DNA of 34,431 nucleotides from Diploschistes diacapsis (taxonomy: Eukaryota), in the NCBI GenBank assembly GCA_023645945.1, contig JALAIB010000083.1, forward strand, positions 1 through 34,431. Direction: 5' to 3'. Positions within the stretch are counted from its first letter, which is position 1, and the number at the start of each line of letters is the position of its first letter. A program made the translations under genes and the position numbers. The notes under the pieces are model-generated. The model was not told the origin of the DNA and did not search any database. It saw nothing but the letters and a program-made list of their open reading frames with translations. This document shows, piece after piece, positions 6,796-34,431 of this stretch.

Positions 6796-9700
6796 CTAAC
6801 TAGCAACCGCAGTGACGGATGCTGGCAACAGTTTGCTCTTGCCCACGATGTCTGCCGACAGCTTCGACAGTGCCTTATTCGCCATCAACTCCAGGATCGA
6901 CACGGTGCTGTCCATCTCGCGGAACAGCCAGTTTCGCATTTCCACTGCGACGAGAGAATCGATACCGTAGTCCGACATGGCCTTTGACGCAGAGATCTCG
7001 TCCTTCGAGATCATGAGCAGCGACGACATTTTGGCAATAATACAGGCGCAGACTTTCTGGGCGGCATCGCCGATCGATGTGACCGTCTTCAGCGCATCAC
7101 GCAATTTGATCCCTTGTCCGCCGCCGCTGCTCTCTCCTTCCGACCCTGGTGCATGGGTGAACATGCGCCTGAAGTGAGAGAAGAGCGGATACGAATAAGC
7201 TGGTTGCGAGCCATCTGCGCGCCAGGTTCCCAGCCCGGTGATTGTCTGCCCGCTGCCAACCCGGTTGCGGAACGGATAGGCTATTGCATGCTGAATCATC
7301 GCCATGAGTTCTCGTTCGGTAGTCCCCTCAAAATTTTGTTTCTTGAGTGCCTTCATCAATTTCTCGTTCTCGGCTACGTAACCGACATCTAGAATAACAC
7401 CGAGGTCGAGCGAAACGGCTGGCAATCCAAGAGTGTTACGGTAGTTAGCAAACGCATCGAGAAATGTAGATGCAGCCGCGTATTGAGCTTGGCTGGCGTT
7501 TCCAATGATGCCGCTGGTCGAAGATAGCATGATGAAAAAATCCAAGTCTTTGGGAAGGAGGTTGTGTAGGTTCCAAGTACCAGCAACCTTAGGCCGGGTT
7601 GTTGCATTGTAATCGCTTAAGGTCATGTTTTGGAACAGAGAATCCTAAAGAGTATTTAGCTCGAAGAAACCCCAGGCTCTGGCGAATTCTACATACTTTC
7701 AGAACCATAGCCCCTTGGATGACACCTCGAATGGGGGCCATCTCGTCCTTGTTATGAGATAACAAGCTCTCGAGCTGCTTCGCGTTGCTGACATCGCAGC
7801 TGTGGACTTTGACTCTAGCACCTTGTGACTCGAGATACTTAACAGCGTCTTGTGCGCTTCGCCTTGCAAGACCGCTACGCGAGGCAATGACAACATTCTG
7901 CGCGCCGTGCCGAATCATCCAGGTAGCCAGTGCACGCCCTATACCGCCAAGACCACCGACTAAAAGATACGAGGCGTCTTTTCGAAATAATCGATCACTG
8001 TTATTGTGAGGTAGAGTCTAGGATAATTAGAAGTGGACGTATACGATCTTTGAGGAACCGACCTTGACCATTTCATTTTCCTTGGCCATCAAGACTAGCT
8101 TTCCAATATGCTTGCCCGCCTGCATGATACGCAGAGCCTTTTCAGCTTCTGCCATTCCATATATGGTAATCGGCTGCGGCGGCTTCACGCTGCCACTACG
8201 AATCAAATCCATGGTAGCAGCCCACAATTTTGCTGTCTCGACGGGCCGGTCTTTGCAAAGGTGGATGAAGTCGACGGCGCTAAAGCTTACGTTCTTTGCG
8301 AAACGGCTCATCTCAAGACGCGTGTTGTTGGCGAAGTCGCGTTTCCCTAGTTCAATGAAGCGTCCGAATGGCGCTATACATTCCCAGGTTATTCGAAGAG
8401 CATCCCCTGCGACAGAATTCATAATCACATCAACACCGTTACCTTTAGTCATTCTCATGATTCCTCCTGCAAAAGTACTGTCTCGGCTGGAGAAAATATG
8501 GTCGTCAGGAACGTCGTAAGTCTTCATCAAGAAGTCCTTCTTTTCTAATGACCCGCAAGTTAGGAATACTTCTACACCAATCATCTGGCAAAGCATGATG
8601 AGGGCCTGTCCCAAGCCCCCTGACGCGGCGTGGATTAGACACGTTTCTGCTTTCTTCAGGCGAGCAGATATAAAGACCGACTGATAAGCAGTGCAGAGAA
8701 TGATAGGCAGAGTTGCGGCAACCTCCATGGGCATATCATCCGGAATAGGCTGCACAGCCTGAGCCTCTTGACGCACGTAGTTGGAGAAGGTTCCATGCCC
8801 GTAGGTCACCACTCGATCACCAGGCTTGAGGTCAATCACGTCACTTCCAACAGCAGAAATGATACCACTGCATTCACCACCAAGATTTTCAATCTTGATT
8901 TGTCCCATAGCCATCATCACGTCTCGGAAGTTGACACCAGCTGCTTTGATCTCGATCTCAACCTCATTGGCAGGTAATGGGTCATTCATTCGCTTGTCGT
9001 CCACGAATCGTAAGGTATCGAGTAAACCGGGGCTTTCTATTTCTAAGGCCAAGGCTCTTCCTGTTTGGAAGAAAGGCTGTTCTTCAGGAATAGCTGTAAT
9101 GAACTTGTTCATCTTCGTATCTTCAATTAGTCGGGGGATTTTAATGTGGCCATCTCTTTGGGCATATTCAACGTCGCGAACTGCTTCGTTATCCCCGTTA
9201 AGAGCAAACTTCGATCGAAAAACATCAAGAATAGCATTTGGTATGCTTTCATCTGAGATCTCAGATTGCGAATCGAGATCTAGCACGACAAAAACGGAGC
9301 TGCCGCTCTCAGACCTGATTGTTCTTGCGAGGCCTGTAATCATATTGGAGGTAGGTGCATCCGAGTTGATGCTTGCGCCGCGGACTATCCAAAGAACCGC
9401 TCCAGAATTAAGCATAAGCTCCTTGGCGCAAGCAAGTTCCTCTTCAGATGGATTCTGAAGAATTGGTTTCGTAAGCTCTACAAGGACAATACTAGTTCGT
9501 CCATCGGGCTTTGAATCGAAGAACTTCGAGACTGATGTTTTAGCTCCAATTCTCCTCAATGAGCTTTCCAGCCGCGTGACCAAACCTTCAGGAGTCCGCT
9601 CGTCCGTGACGATGTTGACATCGTTGTACTGCGGAGCATTATCGGCAATGGCGGATGATATAATCATCGAGCCCTGATGATAAGCTTCGCTTGGAATGTC

Positions 9701-12700
9701 CCATACTGCCGCATCGACTCCTGAGTATCCGCTCTTTTGGAGAAGAGCGTGCCATTCATCTTCGGTCATGAGTGGTCCTTTCTGCCGTGTTGGTTCTTCG
9801 CCAGCCCACCAACCTGGGAGAGTGCCGAACACAGTCGATGTCATCATTCTTTCGCGGGTAAGTTCAACCAGGCATAGCTTCCCCGATGGCTTCAGGAGCC
9901 TCCGTACATGTTTCATGGTCTTGTCCAACGAGCTAGTAGCATGGAGCACATTTGCAGCTATGATGAGGTCGTAGCTTCCTTCGTCAAAGCCCTGAGTTAT
10001 TGGGTCCTTTTCGACATCCAGCTTTTTGAAATTCACAAGGTTTTCCCAAGGCTTAGTCTTCTTGGAGGAGCTCTCAAAGAATCCAGCGGAGATATCGGTG
10101 AAATCATACCTGGAGAAGCGTGGAAGAGTGCCGTTCGCACCACCAAGGGCTTGCAGAATCGGGAATGTGCATCCTCCAGTCCCTGCCCCAATCTCGAGGA
10201 CATTAAGATGAGGGTTCTTATGAGCAAGAAGATCGATGTAACGAGCGGCAAACCTATAATTTTGGCTCATCCGGACGTTGTTTGCGTAGTAGTTGTCAAG
10301 CCGATTGCCTTCCATCATGACAGACAGAGCCTCGACCTTCTGATTAAGTATGTCCGGAAGGCGCTGGCCAACATGACATAGCAAGCTGCCTTCATCATTC
10401 TGCGCACTTACTCGAGCTAGGTGTTCGGTCTTCTCCGCCTCTGGAACATTGGTCCATGATTTAGTTGCTAAAGAGAGGGATCCTTCGTGAACCGCTTTGG
10501 TAAAATGCTTCATGCAGGTATACAACTTCTTGTGATAGCCTGTGAACTTCTCCACTTCTTCAGGAGTGATGACATCCAAAGCCTTCTCCATAAAATAATA
10601 TCCTGCACGCTCGATGGCTTCAATACGCAGCTGTTCGCCTGGCGGTGCCACAATATCAACACAAAGCGCTTCTATCTGTTTGGAAGACATGAAGTCGACG
10701 TCAGGTCGCCAATCCATCTGGTAGCAGAGTTTCTTGGCTTCCATTCCAGCGTGAAGACCTCGATCACTAGAGATTTTAGTGCAGGTCAAACCACGGATAT
10801 TAATCACGGGCTGGGAAGCTCCAAGAGATTCCTCAAAAACAAGCATATCTACTTTATGCTGACGGTAGTCTGCCGGTCGTGCACTCGCGTAGATCTTAAG
10901 TTCGTGTCCGGCCTTGTTAGTGATGTCTCTAGCCACGTCGATTTGCTCAATATAAATTGGAACTATTGGACTCTTTAGCGGCCCATCTGCCGCAGCGATT
11001 GCAGAGAAAAGAGGGTGGAAGCAAGAGTCGAGTGTAGAAGGATGCAGAATGAAGGGGAATTCGAACTGTTCCGGCATGACAGCGGCAGTGTCTGAAATGC
11101 GAATGCAGCCAACAGCCTCATTGGGTAAAGCTTTGATGCTAGTCAAGTTGGCAAAGGTTGGGCCGTACTCCAACCCTATTTCATGAAGATTTTCGTAGAA
11201 TTCTTCAATGCTTGCATCTGTGTAAGTCTTTGCTTTCGAGTCGCTGATCAGCTGAGCATAGGATTCGACGTCTGCTTGCGCCTGTTTCCCGCCATCAACT
11301 TCAGTATGCCTAGACACTCTCTGCACAGAAATCAACCCGCGACAATGCTGGGTCCATGAATCATCCTCTGTAACAGAGAATATGCAGAACTCGTCCCAGA
11401 TATCTGATGTGCTCCTGGTCCCCTCGTTGTATGGTCTCAAGGTAATCAAAGTTTCAACCTCAGGTTGATACTCAGGAATTAGAAGCGCCGCACCAACTGT
11501 GATTTCACGGAGAGTGAAACCGGAAACCTCTACCGACCTATCCAAGGCACGTTGATGTGCTGCTTCGATTGCCATTGTCACATACCCTGCGGCTGGGTAA
11601 ACGATGTTAGATTGAACCTTGTGATCGCGAACCCACGGAATCTCAGATGGACGAATAACGTTGCGCCAGCGTGGCTCGAGAGCATTAGAATTTTTGTCTA
11701 TAACTCCCAGTAAGTCGGTACGAGGATACTTGCGATTGCGGTAAGCTCGACTAAGGCGCGATTCTGCCCACAGAATCATGGAGTGGTTCCAAGCGTAAGG
11801 AGGCAAATCGACTAGAACCTGATTGCGCTCACCATTGGCACGATTGATTGACTCGAAATTAAATCGGTGGCCTTTCAGGTACAGTTGGCCAACGAGCTTC
11901 AACATAGTGTCTATAGCATGAGTGTCTCTTGCCAACACCGAGCCATAACGGATGACCCCGTTTGTGGATGGCTCGGCCTGTAGGATCTGCTTTATTGGAC
12001 CTGCAAGAGCGGGATGTGGACCAACTTCTATAAGCATGTCTACTTCAGGATTGCCTAGCTTCTTGCGACGCTTTTTCCCAACGGTGGCTTCAAGACACAT
12101 CTTTCGCAATGAATCCGAAAACTTGACTTCTGAAATCATATTCGCAACCCAGTACTTGGCGTTAAGGTCTTGCACATCAGCTTGTTCGCCAGTGACCGAA
12201 GAAAAAAACTGGATACCATTGGATTTCTGTAAAGTCAACCCGTTCAATGAGTTGAAGTAGTCATCGGCAACCGTTGCCATGTGATGAGAATGGTAAGCCA
12301 CCTCAACGACAAGCCTGCGAGCAAAAGTTTTCTTTTCTTTTAGGATCTGCATGAGCTCTGATATGGCGGACTCATCTCCAGAGACTGTTATGCTTGACGG
12401 ACTGTTCTCGCATGCTATTTCCGCCTTACCTTCCTTCAATCCTTGGATCAGGGGTAGAGCGTCGGCTTTTGCCATTCCGACAGCCATCATAGCACCACAG
12501 TACCCACCTTTAGACTTGACGGTGGTGCTCACCTTCCCTCGGAAGTATGCAACAGCAATAGCGGCTTCGTGAGTCAGAGCACCAACCGTATACGCAGACG
12601 CAATTTCGCCGCTTGAATGACCGGTGACTGCAATGGGGCGAATATTGAATGAAGCTAGTAGATCCACCAGCGCAATTTGCACGACTGTGCATAAAGGCTG

Positions 12701-14971
12701 GCTCAAAGCTGCTTCATCGACACGTGAATTTGTAGCATCTTTTGATAATTCCTCTGCGAATATGGTTAGCATGCCACAATGCTTTAGAAGATCGCAACCA
12801 TACCCAGCAGATCCCATGGAGCTCCAATTGCCCGAAGATGGCGTGAGGATTGCTCGATGGACTTGCGATAAACAGGGTAGGCAGCAATCAATTGACGTCC
12901 CATAGCATTCCATTGTGCGCCTTGGCCAGTAAAAATAAAAGCTACGGTCGGTGGCTTTGAAGATTTTGAGAACTCCACGTTCTCGTCCTTCAAGAGCGAG
13001 ACCAACTCATCTATTGAACTAGCAGAGACCGCAGTCTTCCACGGGAAAACGGTACGGCGCTCGTTCAGCGTAAAAGCTAAATCGTCTAGCATTTTGCTAC
13101 TAGCAATGTCGTGGCGCTCCTCAAGGTACCTAGCAATGTTTTTCGCTTGTTGTTTGCCAGCCTTTTCATCAAATGCGGAGATTGTGAACAACCTCTTCTT
13201 TAATAAGGCGTCCTTCGTAGTTATCATGTCATCGTTTACATGACTGATTGCAGTCTTTAGCGACTCAGACAACAAAGAAGGGATCTTTCGGTGGAGAGCA
13301 GGAAGGCTTCGAGCCTGCAGATAATGTAATGCATCGTCAATGATGGCGTGAGCGTTCGTGCCTCCATAGCCGAAGCTGTTGATCGATGCTCGCCTAATAC
13401 CTTCAACGCCCCATTCCTCGATCGAAGTAGGAACCTACGAAATCAGATATCTAAAGCGGGATCTGAAGGCAAACAGGCCATCATACCTTCAACTTCCAGT
13501 CCTCAAATGGAATATGAGGATTGCCCTTCTCGAAATTACGGTTAGGCAGAATCAAGTCATTTTCAAGCATTAGAACGGTCTTGACCAGGCCAGCGAGGCC
13601 ACTGCAGCCCTCCAAATGACCCATATTGGATTTGATGGAACCAATTCGGAGAGGTTTGTCGCCTGGTCTGCCTGGCGAGAACACTCCAGCTAAAGCAGAG
13701 GCCTCCAATGGGTCTCCGGCAGGAGTACCGGTACCGTGGGCTTCGACATAGCTTGTGTCAACCGGATCCAGCCCAGCAGCATTATAGACACTCTTAATGA
13801 GTGCTTGCTGAGCTTCTTTGCTGGGCAAGGTGATGCCGGCCGTCTTTCCATCTTGATTAACGCCTGTCTGACGTAACACCGCTCGAATGGTGTCACCGTC
13901 CTTGATGGCGTCTTCCAAAGATTTAAGAACAATGCAAGCTGCACCTTCCCCACGAGCATATCCATTAGCTCGGTGGTCAAAAGAATAACATCGTCCATCG
14001 GGAGACAAAAAGCTTGTCGTTTGTTTAGTCAGCCAGTCACGTGGCACAAAAGATCTAAACCACAAATTTTCCTGTGATGAAAACGGGGCACTTACCGCAT
14101 CATATTCATCGTAATCATGATTTCGTGGCTCAGAATAACATTGGAACCGCCGACAATAGCTGCCCTGCTTTCTCCAGACCTGATTGTTTGGCAGGCCAGG
14201 TGAAGAGCCACAAGACTGGCAGAGCAAGCCGTGTCGACGCTGACACTCGGGCCCTTGAGGTCGAAAAAGTAAGAAAGTCGATTGGACAAAAACGCTAGAG
14301 AAGGGCCACCTCCAGTCGCCTGATAGACTGGCAGGGTTTCTGTATCTCGCAACTGGATGTCCGTGAAGTCGCGACAGAACGACCCAACGAAGCAAGAAGT
14401 ATCGCTGCCAACGAGCTTATCCATCGGGATGCCGGCTTCAGACGCGTGTCAGCTCGCGCTTCATCAAAGAAGATACGGAGTGACTAACCATTTTCAATGG
14501 CCTCATAACAAGTTTCTAGCAGCAGCCTTTGTTGGGGATCCAGGACGGCAGCTTCGTTGCTTGTTATATTAAAGAAAGGGGCGTCGAAGACAGCACGGTC
14601 TTCTTTGAGGTAATGGCCGCCACGAATGTTAGACTTTCAACTTGGTCAGGCTTGAGCGCTCGGTATCTCGTTGTACTTACTGTTCCATTCCTAGCAGTAT
14701 CTGGATGGTAAAAAGCTTCCACGTTATATTTACTCTTTGGCATTTGGCTCCAAGCTTCTCGTGCTTCCGACACCATGCGCCATAAGTTCTCAGGATTGGT
14801 TGCGTCACCAGCGCAACGACATCCCATACCTATAATGGCAATGGGCATACTCTTGTCCCACTGCTGAGGAATACCATTGGGTTGAGCGTCCATTGTTCTA
14901 GGTTGTCCGTCGACAGCATGGAACGCAGTGGATCCTGCTGCGGACCCTGTTGACGCAGCATGAGGGGCCAT
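6796..14971 (-). CDS. Highly reducing iterative type I polyketide synthase (KS-AT-DH-cMT-ER-KR-ACP), about 2597 aa, 8 exons
   Basis: Motifs: [52 protein letters not shown]; c[59 protein letters not shown]. Inferred introns 14634-14680, 14436-14488, 14013-14095, 13435-13486, 12754-12803, 8018-8062 and 7645-7696 give a continuous frame. Confidence 0.97.
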
Positions 14972-15803: not shown

Positions 15804-17343
15804 ATGCCAGCCAACGATAAGAACCACACTGACTGGGATCGAGTCTTTGTTGACATCATAATTTATGTCTACCGGTTCCAGATCGATAGCCTCTCAGCAT
15901 GGACACTTGCCAGGACTGCAGTGCTGGACGCTCTGGGATGTGCGATCGAAAGCCAACAGGCTAGTGTCGGGTGCAGAAGCTTGCTAGGCCCTAACGTCCC
16001 TAATACCCATGTGCTCAATGGTTGCAGGCTCCCGGGAACTGCATATCAACTGGATCCGATCAAGTGTGCATTCGATCTTGGCGCGTGTATCCGCTATCTG
16101 GATCACAACGATGCTATTGGAGGTGCCGAAGCTGGCCATCCATCAGGTATTTGGATATGCTCGTGGGTTGTCAGGCAACGATCTGACTTCCAAAGATAAT
16201 CTGGGCGCTATACTTGCTCTCTGCGATTGGCTCAGCCGATCAGATTCTAGGCCACCAACAGCGCGTAGCATATCTCCGATTACCATTCGCACTGTTCTTA
16301 TGGCGTTGGTTAAGGCTTATGAGATCCAAGGCTGCTTCCAACTACGCAACGCCTTCAATGCTTATGGCCATGATCATACTATCCTGGTCAAACTCGCATC
16401 CACCGCCGTATCTGCCTGGATACTAGGCCTCACCGAAGAGCAAGCTCTTACAGCTATCTCTCACGTCTTCATGGATGGTAGCCCCCTGCGTGTGTTTCGA
16501 AACGCACCAAATACCATCCCGCGCAAAGGTTGGGCAGCAGGAGATGCGTGCTCCCGAGCCCTCCAATTAGTCTTTTTAGCGCGTAAAGGGCAACCTGGAG
16601 GCCGCACAGTGCTGACCGCGCCGCGCTGGGGCTTCTATGCTAACCTGTTTGGGGGTCAGAGCTTCGATCTTCCTCGTGCGTACGGATCATGGGTCATGGA
16701 GAATATTTTTTTCAAGTGCGTCCCCGCCGAGGGCCACGGCATCTCAGCCATCGATGCAACGCTGCAACAGGCCCAGCGTCTGCGGACACGGGGCTTGAAC
16801 CCTGCCACGAGCATCGTAAGGATTCGCCTGCGCACCCACGCGGCCTGCATTCGCATCATCAGCAAACGCGGAGTCCTGTGCAATGCTGCCGACCGTGACC
16901 ACTGCGTGCAGTACATGATCGCCGTCACTCTACTCAAAGGCCGCCCGCTCGAAGTCGGCGACTACACCGACGCAAGCCCTTGGGCGGCCAACTCGGAGGT
17001 GGATGCGCTGCGCGAGCGGATCGAAGTCTTCGAGGACGCGGCACTGACACGGGACTACCTGGACCCGGAGGTCAAGACAGCCGCGAACGCGGTGAGCATC
17101 GAGCTGAGGAACGGCGAGGTGCTGGACGAAGTCATGATGCGCCACCCCCTCGGCCACGTGGAGCATCCGGACACTGCGAAGGCGGTGCGCGAGAAGTTCT
17201 GGCGCAACATGAGTCTCAGGTTCAGTCGGCAGGAGGTCGAGCGGATCCTGGAGGCTTTTGAGGAAGAAGACACGAGGGTGTGCGACTGGGTGGACTTGTG
17301 GGTTCGAAACGATATCCCACGCGCCGGGGAGATTCGGCTTTGA
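15804..17343 (+). CDS. MmgE/PrpD family 2-methylcitrate dehydratase-like protein (alkylcitrate dehydratase), about 496 aa
   Basis: RYLDHND...GHPS/DNLG joined over intron 16147-16195; KAYEIQG, RKGWAAGDA, ENIFFK, AEGHG, ADRDHCVQY. Divergent from the PKS. Confidence 0.93.
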
Positions 17344-17936: not shown

Positions 17937-19262
17937 TCATAGATGCTTCGTGCTGTATGCTCCATCAACCCACTGTAGTCAGTTGAACGGCGGCAGTTGG
18001 AACTCACAAGAAATCCGCAACGGCAGCATATCCTTTCTCGTAATCTGCCTTGGCCTTCGGGTCGGACACGTCCCCACTAAGCACACAGTCAAAGCATTAG
18101 TCTCCATTCGGTTCACAAGTGCTCTGTTCCGCGGAAGTTCATTCAAATCAGTGGCATCGCTGTTTAAGTAAAGAACAAGAGGGGTTTTCCTGCCTTTCGG
18201 CATCAAAATAAGAGAGGCCCATTTACCGAGCGCCCATCCACCCATGAGGCATGGCAGAGTACGTCTCCGTAAACTTTGGCCCCTTCAGACTGTCCACGAA
18301 GCCTTTGACCTCGCCAGCATCCTCGTCTCCGGACGCGAGGACACAGTAGGGAATGGAGATGGCGGCTGCGTCCTTGGAGTCGATCATGGACGGATGTGCA
18401 GCGGCAGCCACGGTCCAGAGAGTGCCCTCGCCAGCCGTTACGGCAACAATCTAAAATGAGTTAGTATCAGTTGTCAAGCCTCGCAGTCCTGCGGCTTTCG
18501 ACTGGACTGATAGGTTGCGCAAGTTGCTATTTACCTTGGCGCCCCAGCAGAGACCAAGAGCAGCAAGCTTCGTCCCTGGCTCGCTCTTTGTCGCTAGCTC
18601 CTGGACGAGGCCGTGGAGATTTGGGATGGCCGTTCCCGGATTGGCGGGGCCGCCGAAAAACGCCCCCATCGCGCCCTGCTTCTCCTCATTGTCCGGCGGA
18701 AACCACGAGGGAGAGGCGTAGGAGCCCTTGAGGAAATCTGGGATGTAGACGGTCGAGCCGTCTTTGACGTGACTAAGAAGGTCGGCGCCCTGGGTGGAAA
18801 AGCGGAGCATTAGGCACGGAAGAGAACTGGGAAGGAAAGGATGATGAGCGATGGGTCATGGGACCAAAGATTTTACCTGGATAGTCTGAGGAGCAAAGCC
18901 GAAGCTGTCGAGCGCATCAGCGGTTCATGTTCCGTGCGGCAAGAAAGGGAGAAATTCTCACATGTCGTAGACAAGGACTATAGCTGTCTTCGCATTCGCT
19001 GGACCAGTCTTGTCTGCATTGAAGAATGGAAGTCAGACCATAGCCACCGCTTCGGCGCTTCTTCTGAAATTGCAAGCCGGAAAGAAGCACAAACAGGTCT
19101 TCAATCCATTGATCTCAACGTACTCTCCCTTGGGAGTGTAGTTGGCTTCCGCCGGTGGCAATGAGCAACAAGCCTTGAGTATTCATCAGAGGAACCACTT
19201 CCGAGCATTATGTGAATGAGTTCAAACTCGCGCAGTACCTCGCTGTGTCCGCCCGTTGCCAT
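17937..19262 (-). CDS. Dienelactone hydrolase family protein (multi-exon)
   Basis: Spliced reading MATGGHSE/ACCSLPP...YTPKGEYVEINGLKT...YDIFGFAPQTIQGADLL...YIPDF...GLCWGAK (Cys nucleophile)...AAHPS...PHGWMGAR/GDVSDP...ADFF/TKHL*. It has many short GT..AG introns. Confidence 0.88.
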
Positions 19263-24821: not shown

Positions 24822-25835
24822 ATGCATGTGTGTTGCTGTGCAGCCGTTGTGGCGTTGACTGGAGTTTTCTTGAGCCTATCATCGGTTGTTGCACAGCCCA
24901 TCAAGGCTCGCGATGATACCGTTGCTGCGAGCGCCCCTCAAGCAAGCGTAGTCTGGACGTTTCCTCAAGACACGTGGGTGGAGAATCTTGCTGTCCGGTC
25001 CAATGGGCAAATTCTCGCGACCTTATTCACGTCACCGCAGCTATACCAAGTTGATCCAACGGGCAACTCACCGGCCTCGCTAGTCCATACCTTCCCTCAA
25101 CAGACATCTTGCCTCGGGATCGCAGAGCTGGGCACAGATATCTTCTATGTCGTCGCAGGGAACGTATCTCTCACGACCTTTGCGTCCGTGCCTGGCTCGT
25201 TCAATGTATACAAGGTCGACATGACCGGTTACAGTCCTGGTGGAAACCCGTCAGTCTCGAAGGTGGCCAATTTCCCTCAAGGCAAGGAGCTCAACGGTAT
25301 GACCGTCCTGAATGCGGCTCAGGATCTCTTAGCAATTGCAGACTCAGCCGCCGGGTCCGTTTTCAGCCTGAACGTCAACACTGCAGCTGTCTCCCCAGTC
25401 GTGGACGACAGTACGATGAGCCCCAATTCCAATATAGCACCGATAGGCGTCAACGGCGTGAAGGTTCACGGCAACAAAATCTACTTCACGAACACGAACA
25501 GAAACACATACACTTCTATCCCCATGAACTCAACCGGACATGCTATGCGATCGGCATCGACCCTCTCCACGACTACAAGTCCCGACGACTTTACGTTTGA
25601 CAGCAACGGTCAGGCGTACTTCGCCGGTAACGACGCCGTAATGAATGGTCCCGTTACTGGGGGGAATCTTTCGGTGTTCTCAAACTCGCCGTTAGTCAAA
25701 GGGTCCACAGCTTGCAAATTTGGCAGGACTGCATCCGACTCTGGAACGCTGTATGTGAGCACAAACGGGGGTTTAGACCAGTACCTCACTGGCAGCTTTA
25801 CCAACCCCGGCAAGATAGTTGCGATTCCCAACTGA
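24822..25835 (+). CDS. Secreted six-bladed beta-propeller protein (SMP-30/gluconolactonase-like; lactonase- or AsR5-type cyclase-like)
   Basis: Intronless 337-aa ORF with a signal peptide. WVENLAVRSNG, LNGM, IADS, GVNGVK, YFTN and PDDF supply the E/N/N/D residues typical of Ca-binding propellers. Confidence 0.8.
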   Translation: MHVCCCAAVVALTGVFLSLSSVVAQPIKARDDTVAASAPQASVVWTFPQDTWVENLAVRSNGQILATLFTSPQLYQVDPTGNSPASLVHTFPQQTSCLGIAELGTDIFYVVAGNVSLTTFASVPGSFNVYKVDMTGYSPGGNPSVSKVANFPQGKELNGMTVLNAAQDLLAIADSAAGSVFSLNVNTAAVSPVVDDSTMSPNSNIAPIGVNGVKVHGNKIYFTNTNRNTYTSIPMNSTGHAMRSASTLSTTTSPDDFTFDSNGQAYFAGNDAVMNGPVTGGNLSVFSNSPLVKGSTACKFGRTASDSGTLYVSTNGGLDQYLTGSFTNPGKIVAIPN

Positions 25836-25976: not shown

Positions 25977-26949
25977 CTAGAGTTTCTCGAACGTTGGCTT
26001 CCGTCTCTCGATGCCGGACAACACGGCTCGCTTCACGTCTTCCGATTGCACGTACGCAGCATTCCATACTTGTGTATATCGCAGACCTATCTGTGCGGTA
26101 AGTAGACCTTCGAGCAAAACAGTCGGATGGGAAGGATCGATTTACTTACTATTATCTACTCCGTGATCCCTGCTGTAATTGAGCAACTCTTTAGTACCCT
26201 GGACTGCCACAGGGCTCTTGCTTGCCAAGAGCTCGGCCAGTCGAAGAGCCTCATTCAACGCCTCCGTTTTTGTACGGACCGTCTTGGTCGCAAAGCCAGA
26301 CTGCAAAGCTTCGTCCGCCCCAAATACCCTGCCCGTCATGCAGATCTCCTTGACCCAGCCCGAGTTGCCGACAATTCGCGGCAGACGGTTGAGAGAGCCC
26401 AGGTCTGCGGCCAAGCCGATATCGACTTCTCGGACCGAGAGCTTGACGTCCTGCGTACAAATTCGAATATCACAGGCCGAGGAGATATCAATGGCGAGCC
26501 CAAAGGAGTATCCGTGAAGTATGCATACGACCGCTTTGCATGCGCTCAGCTTCAAGCCAACAAAGAGTGGAAGGAGCTGAGTCTGGAAGGAACTCACGCT
26601 TTTCACACCTCTCCACGCAGCTTATGCAGTACTGGATGTCTCTCACATCCCTACGGATAGTGTTTGCGAGCCTTCCTGCATCGATATTCTTTCGGTCCGC
26701 CAGGATTCCTTCTTCGACGGCTTCGTGGACATCGAGACCGGCGGTGAAGGCTTTCTCTCCAGCACCGGAGAGGATGATCACTCGCACGTCCGGATCTCTG
26801 GAGAGCTTGTCGAAGATGGTAGACAACGCCGTCCAAGTCGCTCTGAGGAAAGCATTCAGCTGAGCTGGCCGGTTGACCTCGACGTGTGCTATGAAAGGCT
26901 TCGGACTGTAGATGTTGAAGTCTTTGTGCTTCTCTGAAATATCGTCCAT
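25977..26949 (-). CDS. Crotonase-family enzyme, delta3,5-delta2,4-dienoyl-CoA isomerase (ECH1-like), about 281 aa
   Basis: NRPAQLNAF, AFTAGLD, VREVDIGLAADLGSLNRLP, SPVAVQGTKELLNYSRDH and C-terminus PTFEKL. Introns 26534-26597 and 26087-26149. Confidence 0.9.
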
Positions 26950-27881: not shown

Positions 27882-28884
27882 ATGAAGTTCTTATGCCTGC
27901 ATGGTGCCGGTACCAATGCCGACATTCTGCAAACTCAATTAAGTAGGCCATTAAGCAACTCATCGCCAACAGAGCCTTCCTCCTTAGTGGCGTGGACTAC
28001 ATGAAGCTGATGATTTGAATGCAGTGCCTCTTCATAATGCCCTCGGCAAGGAGAATACCGCCGAGTTTCATTTCATAGAAGGCGAATGCGAGACTGCGCC
28101 GGTGGAAGGAATCACGCAATTCTACCAAGGTCCCTACCTATCTTTCTATCCCTGGCCACCCCGCATGGAAGAGGCCGAGTATAACAAGGCAAGAGAGCAG
28201 GCTTACGAACTCATCTACGAGGCGATCGAGGAAGATGGGCCCTTTGATGCAATTCTAGGCTTCAGCCAAGGCGCCAGCCTAGCCTACCTCTTCCTGCAAC
28301 AGCACGCCCGTAAATGTCCCTACGATCCTCCGTGGAATCTGTTTCGCTGCGCAGTCTTCATTTGCGGCATGCCTCCTTTCAGGATCGAGGATTCCCGGCC
28401 CGCGTCACAACGCAAGCCTTCGGCTTCTCTCGGACATTCGGTGGACGCGCAGGAGCTATCCAATTGCTTGTCCTCGATGGCTTCCAGGCCCTCGCTGCGT
28501 TCGGAAGCGTCAAGCAGCAGCAGCAGCGAGCTAAGTTTATCGACGCCCGATTCGGCGTTCTCGAAAGAAGCACCGTTGATCGATTCCCCGGCCTCGTCTA
28601 CGACGTCGATGGGCCCCGAAGTTTCGTCGTTTACGCTTGAATCGGACGATTTCGATCTTGTCTTTGACGAAGACTTCAAAGCGCTTCGGATACCGTCGGT
28701 GCACATTGGCGGCAAGAGCGACAAGGTTTACAATCTTACGAGGAAGCTGTACGCTGGCATGGATAAGGATAATGCGCTATGGATCGAGCACGAGTTGGGC
28801 CACACCATCCCCTGGGATAAGAAGAACACGCAGGCGTTTGTGGATGTGATCAGACAGTTGGAGAGAAGATCGGTGTTGACGTAG
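27882..28884 (+). CDS. FSH1/DUF341 serine hydrolase (trans-acting PKS release esterase, LovG-like), about 306 aa
   Basis: Exon 1 reads MKFLCLHGAGTNADILQTQL, followed by intron 27943-28024. GPFDAILGFSQG (Ser), HIGGKSD (Asp) and GHTIP (His) form the catalytic triad. Confidence 0.92.
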
Positions 28885-29114
28885 TAGAAAGCTCAGCAGG
28901 GTGGTGTGGTACGGGAACAAGGACGATAGCATTTTCAGCCAGGCGTTGGGGGCTGTAGATCGCCGCAGCTACCTCGGTATAGAGCGTCACATCTTTTCCT
29001 GTGAAATAAATAGCCAGTAGCCGATTGGGGTTCAATGCGAGATATTGTCTAAGCTTAGCAACCACCGGGGGCTCCGTGGGGCCAGATTCGACGCTGTATC
29101 TATCAGCTAGTTTG

Positions 29115-29115
<1 letters not shown>

Positions 29116-29148
<33 letters not shown>

Positions 29149-29150
29149 TC
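29116..29150. repeat. (CT)n microsatellite
   Basis: Run of ctctct... followed by a degenerate ctttct tail. Confidence 0.9.
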
Positions 29151-29463
29151 TCGTTGATCTACCGGCATATCTATGATGCTGCCTGCCCATGTTGCCGTCA
29201 CGGGTGCCCGCCCCCACGCCATAGTCAAGCCCTAGCTTAGCCCTTACCTCTCTCCCCGTGGGTTGCTGAGTAGAATAAAACATAACTCTTTTTTGGGGCT
29301 ACGGAAAGGAGCAGGGCCGACGCGCCGTGCCGTGCGGTGCCGTCTTGGAAAACAAAACACTAACGATAAAAGACGAGGTTAGTTATCATTGGTCAGCCGT
29401 CTCATCTTTTCGGCCCCCATATTCTTTCATTCTTCCACCTGTTTGTTCCATCTCGCTGGATCA

Positions 29464-29514
29464 TGGACCATATGGACCATGTGGATGGACCATAGACCAT
29501 AGACCATAGACCAT
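29464..29514. repeat. Short tandem repeat of GACCAT(A) units
   Basis: tggaccata tggaccatg tgga tggaccata gaccata gaccata gaccat. Confidence 0.8.
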
Positions 29515-29809
29515 TCGTTCTCAGCCTGGAGCGCCGTGGCGTTGCAACGTCGAGCATTAAGTCGCGATAAACCGTTGCCTTCTTATCTTTGCTGTCTAGG
29601 CCCTACCGCCCGGTTTTAAGCCCCCACAGCCTACAGCCACAAGATGCTGGGATCTTGCTTTGCTTACCATGCATGAAATCAGTGATCAGTGGCGGCTTCC
29701 TGCCCACGCAGATTGAATTGCCTCCTCCCAGGTAGATCTTAGCGCTTACACATCCCAAGTTTTGCTTGCTTTTTTTGTGGTGGAGAAAGACAGAGTAAGC
29801 GCTAATGTT

Positions 29810-29827
29810 GACGACGACGACGACGAC
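29810..29827. repeat. (GAC)6 microsatellite
   Basis: gacgacgacgacgacgac. Confidence 0.8.
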
Positions 29828-29992
29828 CGCATAAGCCTCGTGAGCTTGTTTTTCTTCTTTTCTCAACTTTGAGCCCAAAGATCAAGCCACCATCGTTACT
29901 CGGAAAAAGCGCGCGTGGTGTGGGTTGCATTGCATATTTCCTGCCGTTTGTAACAACAAGTAAGATACGGGTAATTTTTCATCCGTTTTTCG

Positions 29993-30013
29993 ACTCGTCT
30001 CGTCTCGTCTCGT
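29993..30013. repeat. (CTCGT)4 pentanucleotide repeat
   Basis: ctcgt ctcgt ctcgt ctcgt with slight overlap/offset. Confidence 0.7.
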
Positions 30014-30669
30014 AACATACAACGTAGACACTAGTTTCCCACAATCCTTCAGGAAGGGCAGAATCCCGTGTGTAAAGTTGTTTCAGCCGGTTTCTAGTTT
30101 CCAGATCTCATACTACCTAATCTCGGACTTGTCTCATTACTAACAGTTCCCTTCCTAGTCAGCAATCATGATGACACTTTCCATCGCTCTGGCAATCACC
30201 ACGCTAGTGAACCAGCTGAGCTTGACTGAAACTAGCTGGCTTGCGCAGCTTGTGGATATTAAGCGAGCAGACAGCTCAAAGCACGTTAACCATACTGAGC
30301 AGGTAAAGCACTCCAGATTGACCTGCTCGACTGCAGTGCTCTGATATTCGAGGCTCTTGGCCATCAGAAGGCTTGGGAGGTGAATGCAGCTGGCTGGCCT
30401 TCCCCTCCCCAAGAGGGTTCAGGGTTGGCAGCTTGCCCACCCTTTTTCCTCGAAGCTCAGGTCATTGTTGCTCGACTTTCCTTTCTCAGGAGTCTAAATT
30501 ACAGGTGGAAGTGTGAGAAGGCTGATCTAACAAGTCCCGTTTGACTCGAAAAAATCCTTTTACCTTGCAGACTCTCCTAAAACCGAGGAGCTGTGTCGTA
30601 AAATTATACGAGGAATCAAGCTGGCACTACCATGTGGCAGAACCTTGCTGGCTTTTTAATCATATAAAA

Positions 30670-32231
30670 ATGTCCGAAGGCACACTCTACGTTACAGATT
30701 CAAGAACCTCCTCAAAGTATGAGATACCCATACATCGTAACAGCGTCCCAGCAAGCAGCTTCAAAGCGATCAAGGCACCCAGAAATGGAAATCTCGCAGT
30801 CGATCAGGTGGAAAACGGCCTCCGTCTCTTCGACCCGGGCTTAAAGAATACGGCAGTGTCGGAGTCCAAGATCACCTTTATGTAAGTTTCCCCTGGCATA
30901 AGTACGGAAGATAGGAATCAACTCTGGAATTCTCAGAGATGGAAAACGAGGGCGGCTTCAGTACCGAGGACACCGGATCGAGGATCTGTGGTACGACATG
31001 GAATATGAAGACCTACTATGCTTATTCGTTTGGGAGCACTTTCCTTCTCCGGAAGAGAAGTCAAGAATCCGACAAGATCTAGCTGCCGCAGCGCGGAACG
31101 TGCCCCAGACCGTGATCGATACCATCCGCTCATTCCCGTAAGTCAACGAACCGATTCGGGGCATTTATCCACCCTAACAACGCGGATCCAGTGCAACAGC
31201 AACGCCAATGCAGATGGTGATTGCCGGTCTGGCTGCGTACCTGGGATCCGACCCGACCATAATACCCACGCACAGCGGTGGGAATATTTACCACGGGAAC
31301 ACGGAAATGATCGACCAATCCATCATCCGCACGCTCGCGGCCTTGTCGGTCTGCATCGGCCTCGCCGCTAGTCACCACTCCGGCGTCCCGTTCACGCCGG
31401 CCGATCCCAGCAAGGGCTTTCTCCACAATCTTCTCCTCATGATGGGCAAGGTCGACAAGGCCACTGGGAAGGCGGATCCGAAGCACCTCGCCGCGCTCCA
31501 GCACACGTGGGCCCTCGGTGCCGAGAACGGCCATACAAACTCCACGTCGGCCATCCTTCTGGCCGCCTCGACCCTTTCGGATCCCATATCCTGTCTCATC
31601 TGCGCTTTGTCGTCCGGATACGGCCCCCTCCACTTCGGCGCCATGGAGGTCTCCTATAAGGTGATGACGGCGGTCGGCAGGCCGGAGAACGTCCCGGCGC
31701 TGATCGAGAGCGTCAAGCGCGGCGAGGCCCGCCTATTTGGCTACGGCCACCGCCTGTACGAGACTGAAGACCCGCGTCTGCGCTTCTCGAAGCAGATCCT
31801 TCAGGAACTCGGCGCCGACCATCCGCTGCTCAGCGTCGCGATGGAAATCGACCGCATCGCGAGCTCGGACGAGTATTTCGTCCGGCGGAACCTGCACGCC
31901 AATGCCGACCTGTATGGGGTTTTCATTTACATAGCGCTGTGAGTGGAAAGGCAATGGGGAACCCTACGGGGCCGAGCGTCTGCAGCTGGCTAACGAGCGT
32001 TTGTGCAGCCAATTTGAGCCGGGCCTTGTCCCAGTGATGATGATGGCAACGAGGTCGGCTGGCCTGATGGCGCACTGGAAGGAGGCTATGTGTGAGTCGT
32101 TCCCAAAAAGCCATGTGTGGCGCACAATGTACTGACCCGGGCACGCAGCGAGACAGAACCATCTGTGGCGGCCGCCGAATTTCTATACGGGGGAGCTTGA
32201 CGTAGACTACCCGGTAAAAGCGACTTTGTAG
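30670..32231 (+). CDS. Citrate synthase-like protein (alkylcitrate synthase), about 441 aa, 5 exons
   Basis: GLRLFDPG...ITFIDG..G.LQYRG, GPLHFGA, LFGYGHRLY...DPR, NADLY, AHWKE, WRP...YTG. Introns 30882-30936, 31138-31191, 31939-32008 and 32092-32148. No mitochondrial presequence is evident. Confidence 0.94.
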
Positions 32232-32785: not shown

Positions 32786-34431
32786 ATGACCGACCACTCC
32801 AGCGTTGAAACCAGAACCGACCCATTCGCCCATGGAAACCCCAGTGGCAACAGCCCCGACCGCTCCGTCGGCGCTTTCTCCACCGCGGGCAAGATCCTCG
32901 TCGTCACGGGCGGCGGGTCCGGTGAGTCTCCTCTTCCTCCTCTTCCATCGCAAACATTCCCTCTCCTCCCATTTCCCCCACAACAATGGACACATAAACA
33001 TACATCATCGCCCACGCCCCGACCTATTCTTACTCTCTGAAACGCCCCAGGCATCTGTCTCTCCTTCGCCCAGCTTCTCGCCGCCTCTACTTCCGCATCG
33101 GGATCCAGCGCGCCGCCTCTTCCGCCCACGCGCATCATCCTCGCCGACCTGCGCCTGACGCCAGAGGCAGAGGACTTCGTGCGGGAGGCGAACGGCGGCA
33201 GCAGTGGTGGAGTGAGAGTGGTGTTTGCGAAGACGAACGTTGCGAGACGGGCCGAGCTCGAGGAGTTGGTGCAAGTCAGTCTGCGCACCTGGGGCGATGT
33301 GCCGGATGTTTGGGTGGCGGGGGCAGGGATATTCGAGCCGGTGAGTTTGAAGGGGAAATGACGAGAAAGCATGAGGGATGGGTCTCGTGGAAGGGGTCTG
33401 ATGCAGAATTTTCATTTTTGGCCCGCCCTCCCCCTTCCCTCCTAACTTTCCCCTTTTCCCTCTTTTCTGGTTGATGCTCTCCCATGCAGTCTTTTTTTTT
33501 TCTTTATATTCCTTGAGCGAAAAAGTCAAAAGCTGAGGGTGGCATCTTCAGAAATGGTCGTCGTTCTGGGAAGACAGCGAGGAAGACGGATACGAGACCT
33601 TGAACATAAGTAAGACACTCTACATTCCAGTTTCCTTTTTTCTTTCCCCTCAGATGTAGGCCGATTTTGGACCCTCTCTTAACACAATCAATCCCTGTCG
33701 CGTTTCTCGGAGTGTACCCACCCCCCTCATCCCCCGAGCAAAAAACGCTCCGAAAAAGAAAAACATCCAGCGTTCCCCGTGTATGTTGCTGATTTGCTTT
33801 GCTCCGCGCAAGACCTCGCCCACCCGATCAAGCTCGCCCGCCTCGCGATCAAGACGCTGGTGGCACACGACAAAAAGGGCGTGGTGGTGGCAGTCGGCTC
33901 GACGACGAGTCTAACGAAGAACTACGCGCGGCCCATCTACTGCGCGTCCAAGGACGCCATCAACAGCTTCGTGCGCAGCATGGAGCCGGCGGACAAGCTC
34001 GAGGGGGTGAAGGTCGTGTGCGTGATGCCAGGGTGAGTTATAAAATATCCACCTATCTCCATTCTGTCACCGCTTTTCCCTTCCCGACCCTCGTAAACCC
34101 CCACCACCAAAAACCTATCCACTCGAACACTCACACACGACCAGCATAGTCTCCACCCCTCTCTGGCTCTCCCCAACCTCCCCGGACGCGGCCTCCGCCC
34201 GCACGCAATTCTCCTACACGTCCGACGTCGCCATCGCGCCGTCCGAAGTCGCACGGACGATGCGGGAGCTGGTCGAGAGCGGCGCATATCCCGGCGGCAC
34301 GGTGCTGAGAGTCGACCGCTCCGGGCAGGCCGTGCTGCCGTTCGAGACGCGGAAGCGGGTGGGCGTCGATGAGCAACGAGCGCGCGAGATTACGGAGAGG
34401 AGCTGGGGGCCCGTGAGGGCGATGCTGGGAG
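32786..34431 (+). CDS. Short-chain dehydrogenase/reductase (15-hydroxyprostaglandin dehydrogenase-like), 3' end truncated by the window
   Basis: VVTGGGS/GI Rossmann motif across an intron (about 32922-33050), IILADL, VAGAGIFEP, catalytic S and YCASK, VCVMPG/IVSTPLW. Four introns inferred; no stop before the window end. Confidence 0.88.

What the first reader, a model, noticed from the sequence alone, without database searches (positions are those of the whole stretch)
6796..34431. hrPKS-based alkylcitrate cluster with an unusual tailoring set and no dimerising cyclase in view
Seen: ten contiguous genes (hrPKS, PrpD-like dehydratase, dienelactone hydrolase, P450, MFS, beta-propeller, ECH1-like isomerase, FSH1 hydrolase, citrate synthase, SDR). 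Established: hrPKS + DUF341 hydrolase + alkylcitrate synthase + alkylcitrate dehydratase make the maleic anhydride monomer in byssochlamic acid, rubratoxin, cornexistin and phomoidride pathways, which also need KSI-like dimerising cyclases and usually PEBPs. The lactone-forming alkylcitrate pathways (sporothriolide, oryzine) instead use FAS plus SMP-30-type lactonases and a dioxygenase. Inference: this cluster combines the maleidride-type PKS front end with lactone-type tailoring (P450, propeller, dienelactone hydrolase, SDR). It may make a monomeric hydroxylated alkylcitrate/alkylaconitate lactone or anhydride (paraconic-acid or butenolide-like). I do not recognise this exact gene set as a characterised cluster.
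Basis: partly seen in the sequence, partly recalled or inferred. Interest (0 to 1): 0.85.

Follow-up and report, generated by a model that had tools for sequence, protein, structure and literature searches.

The report
Lichen-fungus maleidride-type alkylcitrate gene cluster
This is a fungal gene cluster from a lichen sample that should build an alkyl maleic anhydride from a polyketide and oxaloacetate; its gene set resembles published orphan clusters, and the contig ends before one can tell whether two units are joined.

Summary
All ten genes are present and intact at 6796-34431: hrPKS, PrpD-type alkylcitrate dehydratase (ACDH), dienelactone hydrolase (DLH), P450, MFS, six-bladed propeller, enoyl-CoA isomerase (ECI), FSH1 hydrolase, alkylcitrate synthase (ACS) and SDR.

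- The "unusual tailoring set" is already catalogued for maleidride clusters (PMC8851701). DLH plus propeller occur in the cornexistin cluster. The orphan clusters of the lichen Imshaugia aleurites and of Talaromyces borbonicus have both, plus ECI and P450. ECI is in half of maleidride clusters.
- No NTF2-like cyclase or PEBP was found in the window. However, the window is a whole 34,431-base lichen-metagenome contig that stops inside the SDR gene, so absence cannot be concluded.
- No direct search with a cyclase sequence could be run.

What is new: in the PKS and ACDH trees the cluster falls in a separate lineage with Thelotrema lepadinum. The PKS tree adds Lachnellula suecica and Circinaria calcarea. 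This lineage sits beside, not inside, the characterised maleidride clades sampled.

The propeller is closest to the hetero-Diels-Alderases PycR1 and EupfF.

Best reading (0.5): an orphan maleidride-type cluster cut by the contig end. Main rival (0.33): a cyclase-free pathway to a monomer. Interest is moderate.

The parts
6796..14971 (-). Highly reducing PKS, 2597 aa, KS-AT-DH-CMeT-ER-KR-ACP. Exons 14971-14681, 14633-14489, 14435-14096, 14012-13487, 13434-12804, 12753-8063, 8017-7697, 7644-6796.
   Evidence: Pfam. Splice sites set by homologues. Motifs [33 protein letters not shown] and GIDSL are present. Best-HSP identity: 79% to T. lepadinum MMC10_000666 (over the first 1346 residues), 63% Lachnellula suecica, 62% Circinaria calcarea, 54.5% Cadophora DSE1049, 51.5% ScyPKS, 47% phiA.
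15804..17343 (+). Alkylcitrate dehydratase (MmgE/PrpD family), 496 aa. Exons 15804-16146, 16196-17343.
   Evidence: Pfam. Model. 85-74% identical to unnamed relatives; 54% to the P. fulvus and P. divaricatus enzymes, 53% to ScyR7. It is the only PrpD-family gene in the window.
17937..19262 (-). Dienelactone hydrolase, 248 aa, 8 exons: 19262-19239, 19173-19095, 19013-18962, 18904-18877, 18789-18535, 18450-18227, 18076-18008, 17952-17937.
   Evidence: 10 of 10 homologues hit PF01738; 48.8% identity over 242 columns to P0366, which UniRef names a DLH-domain protein of Letharia lupina. The reading of GLCWG as the Cys elbow and HGW as the catalytic His is from recall.
19831..21527 (-). Cytochrome P450. 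Exons 21527-21435, 21375-20263, 20207-20041, 19990-19831. An upstream ATG at 21605 is less likely.
   Evidence: Pfam 2e-43. Model. One- and four-base indels at 21549 and 21574 in the relative X2 argue that this stretch is 5'UTR. By eye, the N and C termini resemble the I. aleurites cluster P450 printed in the supplement.
22667..24294 (+). MFS transporter, 522 aa. Exons 22667-22912, 22972-24294.
   Evidence: Pfam MFS_1 1.8e-45. Model.
24822..25835 (+). Six-bladed beta-propeller, 337 aa, single exon, with a hydrophobic N-terminal helix (residues 4-21) read as a signal peptide.
   Evidence: PDB sequence hits PycR1 6.4e-21 and EupfF 7e-18. AF2 pLDDT 91. Foldseek: PycR1 and EupfF TM 0.81, putative SMP-30 lactonase 2p4o TM 0.76. 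71% identical to T. lepadinum MMC10_000663. The signal-peptide reading is by eye.
25977..26949 (-). Enoyl-CoA isomerase/hydratase (crotonase fold), 281 aa. Exons 26949-26598, 26533-26150, 26086-25977.
   Evidence: Pfam ECH_1. Hand-built model without stops, with GT..AG introns of 64 and 63 nt.
27882..28884 (+). FSH1/DUF341 (AlnB-like) serine hydrolase, 306 aa. Exons 27882-27942, 28025-28884. It carries a Ser-rich insert of roughly 90 aa.
   Evidence: Pfam FSH1 2.5e-23 in two stretches. Model. GFSQG, GKSD and GH motifs line up by eye with the I. aleurites hydrolase in the supplement.
28885..30669 (.). Gap without a convincing gene. It contains a (CT)18 microsatellite at 29116-29152.
   Evidence: No Pfam hit among its ORFs of 40 aa or more. 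The best ab initio model is a 104-aa product scoring 17, against 33-89 for the complete neighbouring genes (the open-ended SDR scored 11.4). The relative X3 has deletions of 164, 169 and 54 bases here. The codon-usage test was inconclusive.
30670..32231 (+). Alkylcitrate synthase, 441 aa. Exons 30670-30881, 30937-31137, 31192-31938, 32009-32091, 32149-32231.
   Evidence: Pfam Citrate_synt 1.6e-47. Model. PDB citrate synthases at 1e-31. The YGPLHFGA and FGYGHR...DPR motifs match BfL2 and PvL6 as printed in the supplement.
32786..34431 (+). Short-chain dehydrogenase, at least 330 aa. Exons 32786-32921, 33051-33340, 33552-33609, 33813-34032, 34145-34431. The frame is still open at the contig end.
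   Evidence: Pfam adh_short 3.2e-11. Model containing TGGGSG and YCASK.

Best explanation
This is an orphan PKS-based alkylcitrate (maleidride-type) biosynthetic gene cluster of a lichen-forming fungus. Steps inferred from close family membership: the hrPKS makes a reduced acyl chain; the FSH1-type hydrolase releases it; after CoA activation (no ligase gene is in view) the ECI sets the enoyl-CoA geometry; the ACS condenses it with oxaloacetate; the ACDH dehydrates the alkylcitrate to an alkyl-aconitate that closes to an alkyl maleic anhydride monomer. Steps inferred only from cluster membership: the P450, the SDR, the DLH and the apparently secreted PycR1/EupfF-like propeller modify that scaffold, and the MFS protein exports it. 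My most likely reading is that this is a cluster of the cornexistin / Imshaugia aleurites kind, whose dimerising cyclase lies beyond the contig end, so the product would be a tailored maleidride. The monomer-forming part I hold at about 0.85. The whole statement, including dimerisation off-contig, I hold at 0.5.
For: All four monomer-forming genes are intact, with their family motifs. The ACS shares the ACS-specific YGPLHFGA motif with BfL2 and PvL6. The PKS lineage is sister, at SH-aLRT 98, to a 12-row clade holding ScyPKS, phiA and the Cadophora orphan maleidride PKS. The accessory set DLH + propeller + ECI + P450 is listed for the orphan maleidride clusters of I. aleurites and T. borbonicus, both of which have a cyclase; I. 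aleurites also lacks a PEBP (PMC8851701). Deleting the ECI in the scytalidin and zopfiellin producers lowers titres before monomer formation (PMC12231587, passages). The left border is visible: a secreted repeat protein and a SET-domain gene lie left of the PKS. So anything missing must lie to the right, where the contig ends inside the SDR. The set is conserved. In T. lepadinum the ACDH, propeller and PKS orthologues carry locus tags 000659, 000663 and 000666, with three tags between ACDH and propeller as here. By equal contig length, PKS, ACDH and propeller homologues share at least 3 other contigs: 30332, 2186755 and 90263.
Against: No NTF2/SnoaL or PEBP family hit was found in 98 of the 130 ORFs of 80 aa or more. 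The 32 ORFs not scanned lie inside gene bodies in other frames. None was found either in 124 intergenic ORFs of 40-79 aa. Ten genes in a row without a cyclase is unusual for published maleidride clusters. The ACDH, with its T. lepadinum orthologue and 4 unnamed relatives, forms a 100%-supported clade. That clade lies outside the clade (SH-aLRT 96, 24 rows) holding every characterised maleidride ACDH sampled: BfL3, ScyR7, and the zopfiellin, cornexistin, Bipolaris and T. stipitatus enzymes. Pfam may not recognise maleidride cyclases; the paper assigns them only to an NTF2 superfamily signature. A direct search with a cyclase sequence was not run.
Confidence: 0.5

Rival explanations
1. The cluster is complete, or nearly so, and has no dimerising cyclase. 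It makes a monomeric product: an alkyl maleic anhydride or alkylcitrate that is hydroxylated (P450), reduced (SDR) and opened or lactonised (DLH, propeller).
For: No cyclase or PEBP was found in 34.4 kb, including 6.8 kb of left flank. The ACDH and PKS belong to a lineage beside, not within, the characterised maleidride clades sampled. The closest named relatives are mostly lichen-forming fungi: 13 of the 19 organism-named propeller hits, including all 12 best. From recall, lichens are rich in monomeric alkylcitrate-type acids, while only one lichen maleidride, homoheveadride, is mentioned in PMC9890510 (passage).
Against: The contig ends inside a gene, so absence is not shown. The known monomeric lactone pathways use a cis-aconitate-decarboxylase-like enzyme, a dioxygenase and FAS (PMC8162735, passages). 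None of these is here; there is a single PrpD-family gene. The same accessory genes occur in clusters that do have a cyclase. Two literature searches found no paper linking a lichen aliphatic acid to such a cluster.
Confidence: 0.33
2. The PycR1/EupfF-like propeller itself couples two units by a pericyclic or related intermolecular reaction on the diene-bearing anhydride monomer, replacing the NTF2-type cyclase.
For: The best sequence and structure matches in the PDB are the two hetero-Diels-Alderases: 6.4e-21 and 7e-18 by sequence, TM 0.81 by structure, ahead of lactonases. PMC8851701 notes that AsR5, a homologue of PvL7, has hetero-Diels-Alderase activity. The PKS-propeller association recurs on at least 5 contigs by equal contig length.
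Against: Identity to PycR1 and EupfF is only 23-25%. The next structural hit is a putative lactonase (TM 0.76). Active-site residues were not compared. The same propeller type sits in clusters that also carry an NTF2 cyclase (cornexistin, I. aleurites). Fold likeness does not show the reaction.
Confidence: 0.07
3. The locus is not a working unit as assembled: either a metagenome misjoin at the microsatellite, or a cluster in decay.
For: In the run that may be the source, no Logan contig bridges 29105-29161, the (CT)n repeat. A gap of 1.8 kb holds no gene. The hydrolase carries a long Ser-rich insert.
Against: All ten reading frames are intact. In the relative X3 one contig joins 29022 to 29187 across the repeat, with 160 bases on the shorter side. 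Of the 12 small indels listed for the relatives X2 and X3 (170 more were not shown), all fall in introns, intergenic DNA or the presumed P450 5'UTR under these models.
Confidence: 0.05

Closest known systems
Orphan putative maleidride cluster of the lichen fungus Imshaugia aleurites (CAJPDT010000158.1; Williams et al. 2022, PMC8851701)
   Same: It has hrPKS, AlnB-like hydrolase, ACS, ACDH, six-bladed propeller, DLH, ECI and P450, and it has no PEBP. It too comes from a lichen mycobiont.
   Different: That cluster also has a dimerising cyclase, an AusD-like methyltransferase and a SnoaL-like gene, none of which is seen here. This window adds an MFS gene and an SDR. The gene order differs. A short ACDH stretch printed in the supplement looks, by eye, no closer to this ACDH than other maleidride enzymes are. 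No computed comparison was possible.
Cornexistin cluster of Paecilomyces divaricatus (pv genes)
   Same: Core monomer genes plus a DLH (PvL11), a six-bladed propeller (PvL7) and a P450. The ACDH is 54% identical.
   Different: Cornexistin's cluster has a cyclase, a PEBP, an alpha-ketoglutarate dioxygenase, a transketolase and more. Its P450 is in a different clade from the orphan-cluster P450s. PvL7 and PvL11 were not among the best 120 propeller hits or in the DLH lists, so no identity values could be given.
Scytalidin and zopfiellin clusters (ScyPKS, ScyR1-R7)
   Same: ScyPKS is the closest characterised PKS (51.5%). These clusters also have the hydrolase, an ECI-type enoyl-CoA hydratase, ACS, ACDH and MFS genes. 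The scytalidin cluster also lists a unique oxidoreductase, ScyL3.
   Different: They carry a cyclase, PEBPs, an isochorismatase and an AsaB-like dioxygenase, and they have no DLH, propeller or P450.
FAS-based alkylcitrate lactone pathways (sporothriolide, oryzines; PMC8162735)
   Same: ACS plus ACDH chemistry on a long acyl chain. Lactonase-type tailoring is conceivable.
   Different: Those pathways use FAS alpha/beta, a cis-aconitate-decarboxylase-like SpoK, the dioxygenase SpoG and the lactonases SpoH/J. Here there is a PKS, a single PrpD-family gene and no dioxygenase.
PycR1 / EupfF hetero-Diels-Alderases (PDB 7x2n, 7x36)
   Same: These are the best sequence and fold matches of the propeller.
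   Different: Identity is 23-25%. They act in tropolone-sesquiterpene pathways. Catalytic residues were not compared.

Membership tests
Maleidride biosynthetic gene cluster (core set of Williams et al. 2022) | hrPKS with KS-AT-DH-CMeT-ER-KR-ACP | tested here: met
   Pfam domains; motifs; intact 2597-aa model.
Maleidride biosynthetic gene cluster (core set of Williams et al. 2022) | PKS groups with maleidride PKSs | tested here: inconclusive
   In a tree of 42 rows the 4-row clade (window, T. lepadinum, Lachnellula, Circinaria) is sister, at SH-aLRT 98, to the clade with ScyPKS, phiA and Cadophora. The byssochlamic acid, cornexistin, zopfiellin and rubratoxin PKSs were not among the best 120 hits, so they are not in the tree.
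Maleidride biosynthetic gene cluster (core set of Williams et al. 2022) | AlnB-like (FSH1/DUF341) hydrolase | tested here: met
   Pfam FSH1 2.5e-23; model with Ser, Asp and His motifs.
Maleidride biosynthetic gene cluster (core set of Williams et al. 2022) | Alkylcitrate synthase | tested here: met
   Citrate_synt 1.6e-47; intact 441-aa model; motifs as in BfL2 and PvL6. No ACS tree was built, because no ACS homologues were stored.
Maleidride biosynthetic gene cluster (core set of Williams et al. 2022) | Alkylcitrate dehydratase within the maleidride ACDH clade | tested here: not met
   The family is right (PrpD). But the window's 6-row clade lies outside the 24-row clade (SH-aLRT 96) that holds all characterised maleidride ACDHs sampled. 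The tree is unrooted and has no primary-metabolism or FAS-pathway outgroup.
Maleidride biosynthetic gene cluster (core set of Williams et al. 2022) | Maleidride dimerising cyclase (NTF2-like, PTHR31779:SF6) | tested here: inconclusive
   No NTF2/SnoaL hit in 98 ORFs of 80 aa or more, nor in 124 intergenic ORFs of 40-79 aa. Pfam may miss this family, no cyclase sequence could be used as a query, and the contig ends at 34431 inside the SDR.
Maleidride biosynthetic gene cluster (core set of Williams et al. 2022) | PEBP-like protein type 1 | tested here: not met
   No PEBP hit in the same scans. This is not decisive: three orphan clusters, I. aleurites among them, lack it.
FAS-based alkylcitrate lactone pathways (sporothriolide/oryzine) | Dedicated FAS alpha and beta subunits | tested here: not met
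   The only synthase is a type I iterative hrPKS.
FAS-based alkylcitrate lactone pathways (sporothriolide/oryzine) | cis-Aconitate-decarboxylase-like enzyme (second PrpD-family gene) and an alpha-ketoglutarate dioxygenase | tested here: not met
   A PrpD-family query hits one place only by tblastn. No dioxygenase family appears.
Cornexistin-like subset of maleidride clusters | Dienelactone hydrolase and six-bladed propeller together in the cluster | tested here: met
   DLH; propeller. Orthology to PvL11 and PvL7 themselves was not tested.
PycR1/EupfF-type hetero-Diels-Alderases (for the propeller) | Six-bladed propeller fold closest to PycR1/EupfF | tested here: met
   TM 0.81, Foldseek E 1e-22; phmmer 6.4e-21.
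PycR1/EupfF-type hetero-Diels-Alderases (for the propeller) | Catalytic pocket residues and pericyclic activity | not tested
   No residue-level comparison or assay was done.

The most novel reading that the evidence does not exclude
The window, Thelotrema lepadinum, Lachnellula suecica and Circinaria calcarea share a separate lineage of PKS-based alkylcitrate clusters that lacks the NTF2-type cyclase. In this lineage a secreted PycR1/EupfF-like propeller and a dienelactone hydrolase would process an alkyl maleic anhydride. The outcome would be either a monomeric product, a possible genetic entry to lichen aliphatic acids, or a product coupled by the propeller instead of the usual cyclase.
Probability: 0.3. 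Interest if true: 0.65.

Novelty: new member of a known kind. Interest (0 to 1): 0.4.

Why it matters
Maleidrides and alkylcitrate-derived anhydrides include herbicidal and antifungal leads. Lichen fungi are almost unexplored for them: two literature searches found one orphan lichen cluster and no gene-to-compound link for lichen aliphatic acids. This contig adds a well-annotated second lichen example. It belongs to its own PKS/ACDH lineage and is conserved in at least one other lichen fungus. That gives a concrete ten-gene set for heterologous expression. It would become much more interesting if the lineage truly lacks the dimerising cyclase.

Tried and rejected
- **Whole genome.** None is held for this window, so nothing beyond 34431 could be read.
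- **Related metagenome loci.** Of 3 loci, 2 carry a PKS 48% identical. One has an FSH1 hydrolase upstream; the other has only an amino-acid transporter downstream. This says nothing about cyclases.
- **Earlier findings of this scan.** Three look-ups returned nothing.
- **RNA evidence.** No RNA holder was listed.
- **Codon-usage log-odds as a test for hidden genes in the gaps.** Inconclusive. Gap ORFs score 0.12-0.19 per codon, within the range of real exons, and several of my test frames were mis-set.
- **First ab initio gene finder.** It over-spliced. It was replaced by a stricter run and by hand-built models.
- **Suspected frameshift at the ACS 3' end.** Rejected: two more canonical introns restore a normal C terminus.
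- **Suspected loss of a catalytic His in the ACS (AENG in place of ADHE).** Rejected as a defect: BfL2 has CDNG at the same place.
- **PDB sequence search with the DLH exon.** 0 hits.
- **PDB search with an SDR exon.** Only a generic polyol dehydrogenase at 0.0019.
- **A second propeller on this contig.** This was suggested by the equal contig length of cluster P0148. Rejected: tblastn finds one locus only.
- **Not done.** Sequences of cyclases, PEBPs, PvL7 and PvL11 printed in the paper's supplement were not used as queries. No direct tblastn for a cyclase was therefore run, and no identity to the I. aleurites proteins was computed; likenesses to them are by eye.

Full report
**What the window is.** It is fungal DNA with short GT..AG introns. 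It is a complete contig, not a slice of a larger one. The database entry for the window's own propeller protein gives a longest contig of 34,431 bases. In the run that may be its source, labelled a lichen metagenome, the Logan contig also stops at 34431. No whole genome is held.

The nearest named relatives are mostly lichen-forming fungi.
- Propeller: 71% to Thelotrema lepadinum. Of the 19 hits with organism names, 13 are lichen-forming, including all 12 best.
- PKS: 79% to T. lepadinum (over the first 1346 residues), 63% to Lachnellula suecica, 62% to Circinaria calcarea.

**Checking the observation.** The 32 ORFs left out lie inside gene bodies in other frames.

I built spliced models, using homologues where I had them.
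- The PKS has seven introns. One is 45 nt, in frame and carries two stop codons (8018-8062). The protein is 2597 aa with KS, AT, CMeT, KR and ACP motifs.
- ACDH, P450, MFS, propeller and hydrolase models came from a stricter ab initio run.
- ACS, ECI, DLH and SDR were built by hand.
- All are intact. The SDR frame is still open at the last base.

The DLH needed extra support, because its exons are small. A search with its 85-aa exon found 225 relatives at E of 0.001 or better. All 10 of the 10 full-length relatives that I scanned hit Pfam DLH. The 248-aa model aligns over its whole length with them.

The propeller has no Pfam hit. It folds with pLDDT 91 into a six-bladed propeller, whose best PDB matches are PycR1 and EupfF at TM 0.81.

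Close relatives in two other runs give an independent check of the models. All 12 small indels listed lie in introns, intergenic DNA or the presumed P450 5'UTR (170 further rows were not shown).

The relative X3 carries 164-, 169- and 54-base deletions there. My codon test could not settle the point.

**What it is.** The hrPKS, the FSH1/DUF341 hydrolase, the ACS and the ACDH are the monomer-forming core of maleidride pathways. This is set out in PMC8851701 (sections 7, 12, 13, 17, 18 and 22 read; passages of others) and PMC8162798 (passages). The ACS carries the ACS-type motifs seen in BfL2 and PvL6.

The literature says otherwise.
- The cornexistin cluster encodes a dienelactone hydrolase (PvL11) and a six-bladed propeller (PvL7).
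- The orphan clusters of the lichen fungus Imshaugia aleurites and of T. borbonicus have homologues of both.
- ECI genes are in 50% of maleidride clusters, I. aleurites included.
- The I. aleurites P450 belongs to an orphan-cluster clade.
- Supplement Table S2 lists, for I. aleurites: propeller, DLH, PKS, ACDH, ACS, AusD-like methyltransferase, SnoaL-like protein, hydrolase, P450, ECI and a dimerising cyclase, and no PEBP.

Eight of this window's ten genes therefore have counterparts in one published orphan cluster.

The marks of the FAS-based lactone pathways are absent. Those are FAS, a second PrpD-family decarboxylase and a dioxygenase (PMC8162735). They are not seen here.

**The cyclase question.** I found no NTF2/SnoaL or PEBP family hit anywhere: not in the 98 long ORFs, nor in 124 intergenic ORFs of 40-79 aa. 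This includes 6.8 kb left of the PKS, which holds a SET-domain gene and a secreted repeat protein and looks like the cluster border.

Three things keep this from being a finding of absence.
- The contig ends inside the SDR.
- The paper assigns the cyclases only to an NTF2 superfamily signature, so Pfam may miss them.
- I could not run a direct search with a cyclase sequence.

**What is distinctive.** Two trees agree.
- ACDH tree: 48 rows, made of the window, 46 of the 120 listed hits and the T. lepadinum orthologue. The window groups at 100% support with T. lepadinum MMC10_000659 and four unnamed proteins. This group lies outside a 96%-supported clade of 24 rows containing every characterised maleidride ACDH in the sample.
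- PKS tree: 42 rows, first 1500 alignment columns. The window plus T. lepadinum, with Lachnellula and Circinaria, form a 100% clade. It is sister, at 98%, to the clade holding ScyPKS, phiA and the Cadophora orphan PKS.

Both trees are unrooted and lack several characterised enzymes. They show a separate lineage, not exclusion from the family.

The unit is conserved. The T. lepadinum orthologues carry locus tags 000659 (ACDH), 000663 (propeller) and 000666 (PKS). Three tags lie between ACDH and propeller, as in the window. Homologues of PKS, ACDH and propeller share three further contigs, judged by equal contig length. That is contig-level evidence, not proof of adjacency.

**How it most likely works.** These steps are inferred from close family membership:
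1. The hrPKS builds a reduced chain.
2. The hydrolase releases it.
3. An unlinked ligase makes the CoA ester.
4. The ECI adjusts the enoyl geometry. Its deletion lowers titres before monomer formation in two maleidride producers (PMC12231587).
5. The ACS adds oxaloacetate.
6. The ACDH dehydrates, giving an alkyl maleic anhydride.

The roles of the P450, SDR, DLH and propeller are inferred from cluster membership alone. The paper only predicts a role for PvL7 and PvL11 in removing one anhydride ring.

I put 0.5 on a cornexistin/I. aleurites-like maleidride cluster whose cyclase lies off the contig. I put 0.33 on a cyclase-free monomer pathway, 0.07 on coupling by the Diels-Alderase-like propeller, and 0.05 on a misjoined or decaying locus. 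Against the last, a contig of the relative X3 bridges the microsatellite.

**Verdict.** This is a real, intact, orphan cluster of a known kind. What remains interesting is the separate, conserved, largely lichen-borne lineage and the open cyclase question, both of which are directly testable. Interest 0.4.

Noticed in passing
window 5028-6629 (+): A 534-aa open frame with a hydrophobic N terminus read as a signal peptide. It has Lys/Gln-rich internal repeats (recurring ALKVVA..EAA and QKRS stretches), no Pfam hit and strong A-over-T skew. It lies just outside the cluster border.
   Followed up: no
window about 515-3310 (+): A SET-domain gene in several exons, with weak Pfam SET hits at 1507-1746 and 2006-2290. 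It is probably the first non-cluster neighbour on the left.
   Followed up: no
window 8018-8062 (-): A PKS intron of only 45 nt, a multiple of three, carrying two in-frame stop codons between ER and KR. A naive ORF reading makes the PKS look broken.
   Followed up: yes
window about 28400-28700 (+): The FSH1 hydrolase carries a Ser-rich, low-complexity insert of roughly 90 aa between the nucleophile region and the Asp motif. The I. aleurites hydrolase printed in the paper's supplement lacks it. I did not settle whether it is protein or an unusual intron.
   Followed up: partly
window 29116-29152: A (CT)18 microsatellite at which the Logan contigs of the probable source run break. One contig of a relative joins across it with a 164-base deletion.
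   Followed up: partly
window 32149-32231 and 25977-26086: The ACS ends in ...KATL. Many maleidride ACSs in the paper's alignment end in -SKL, -AKL or -ARL; the reading of these as a peroxisomal signal is from recall. The ECI ends in -EKL. Localisation may differ from that in known pathways.
   Followed up: no
window 32922-34144: The SDR introns are long for this locus: 129, 211, 203 and 112 nt, against 45-87 nt in most other genes here (one DLH intron is 150 nt).
   Followed up: no
Thelotrema lepadinum proteins P0326, P0153, P0013: T. lepadinum seems to carry a second, paralogous set: ACDH MMC10_003282 (53%), propeller MMC10_003285 (45%), and a 51% PKS on a contig of the same length as the ACDH's. 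PKS-ACDH-propeller clusters may be a small family in lichen fungi.
   Followed up: no
ACDH tree: A 13-row clade (SH-aLRT 95) joins ACDHs of black aspergilli (A. awamori, A. sclerotiicarbonarius, A. ellipticus) with several lichen fungi (Letharia, Lecanora helva, Xanthoria, Gyalolechia, Icmadophila). From recall, the aspergillus members may belong to the FAS-based alkylcitric acid cluster; this was not checked.
   Followed up: no
L002 847-1626 (-) and 2258 onward (+): A soil-metagenome contig with a PKS 48% identical to this one has an FSH1 hydrolase divergently upstream. The PKS-hydrolase pairing recurs there.
   Followed up: partly
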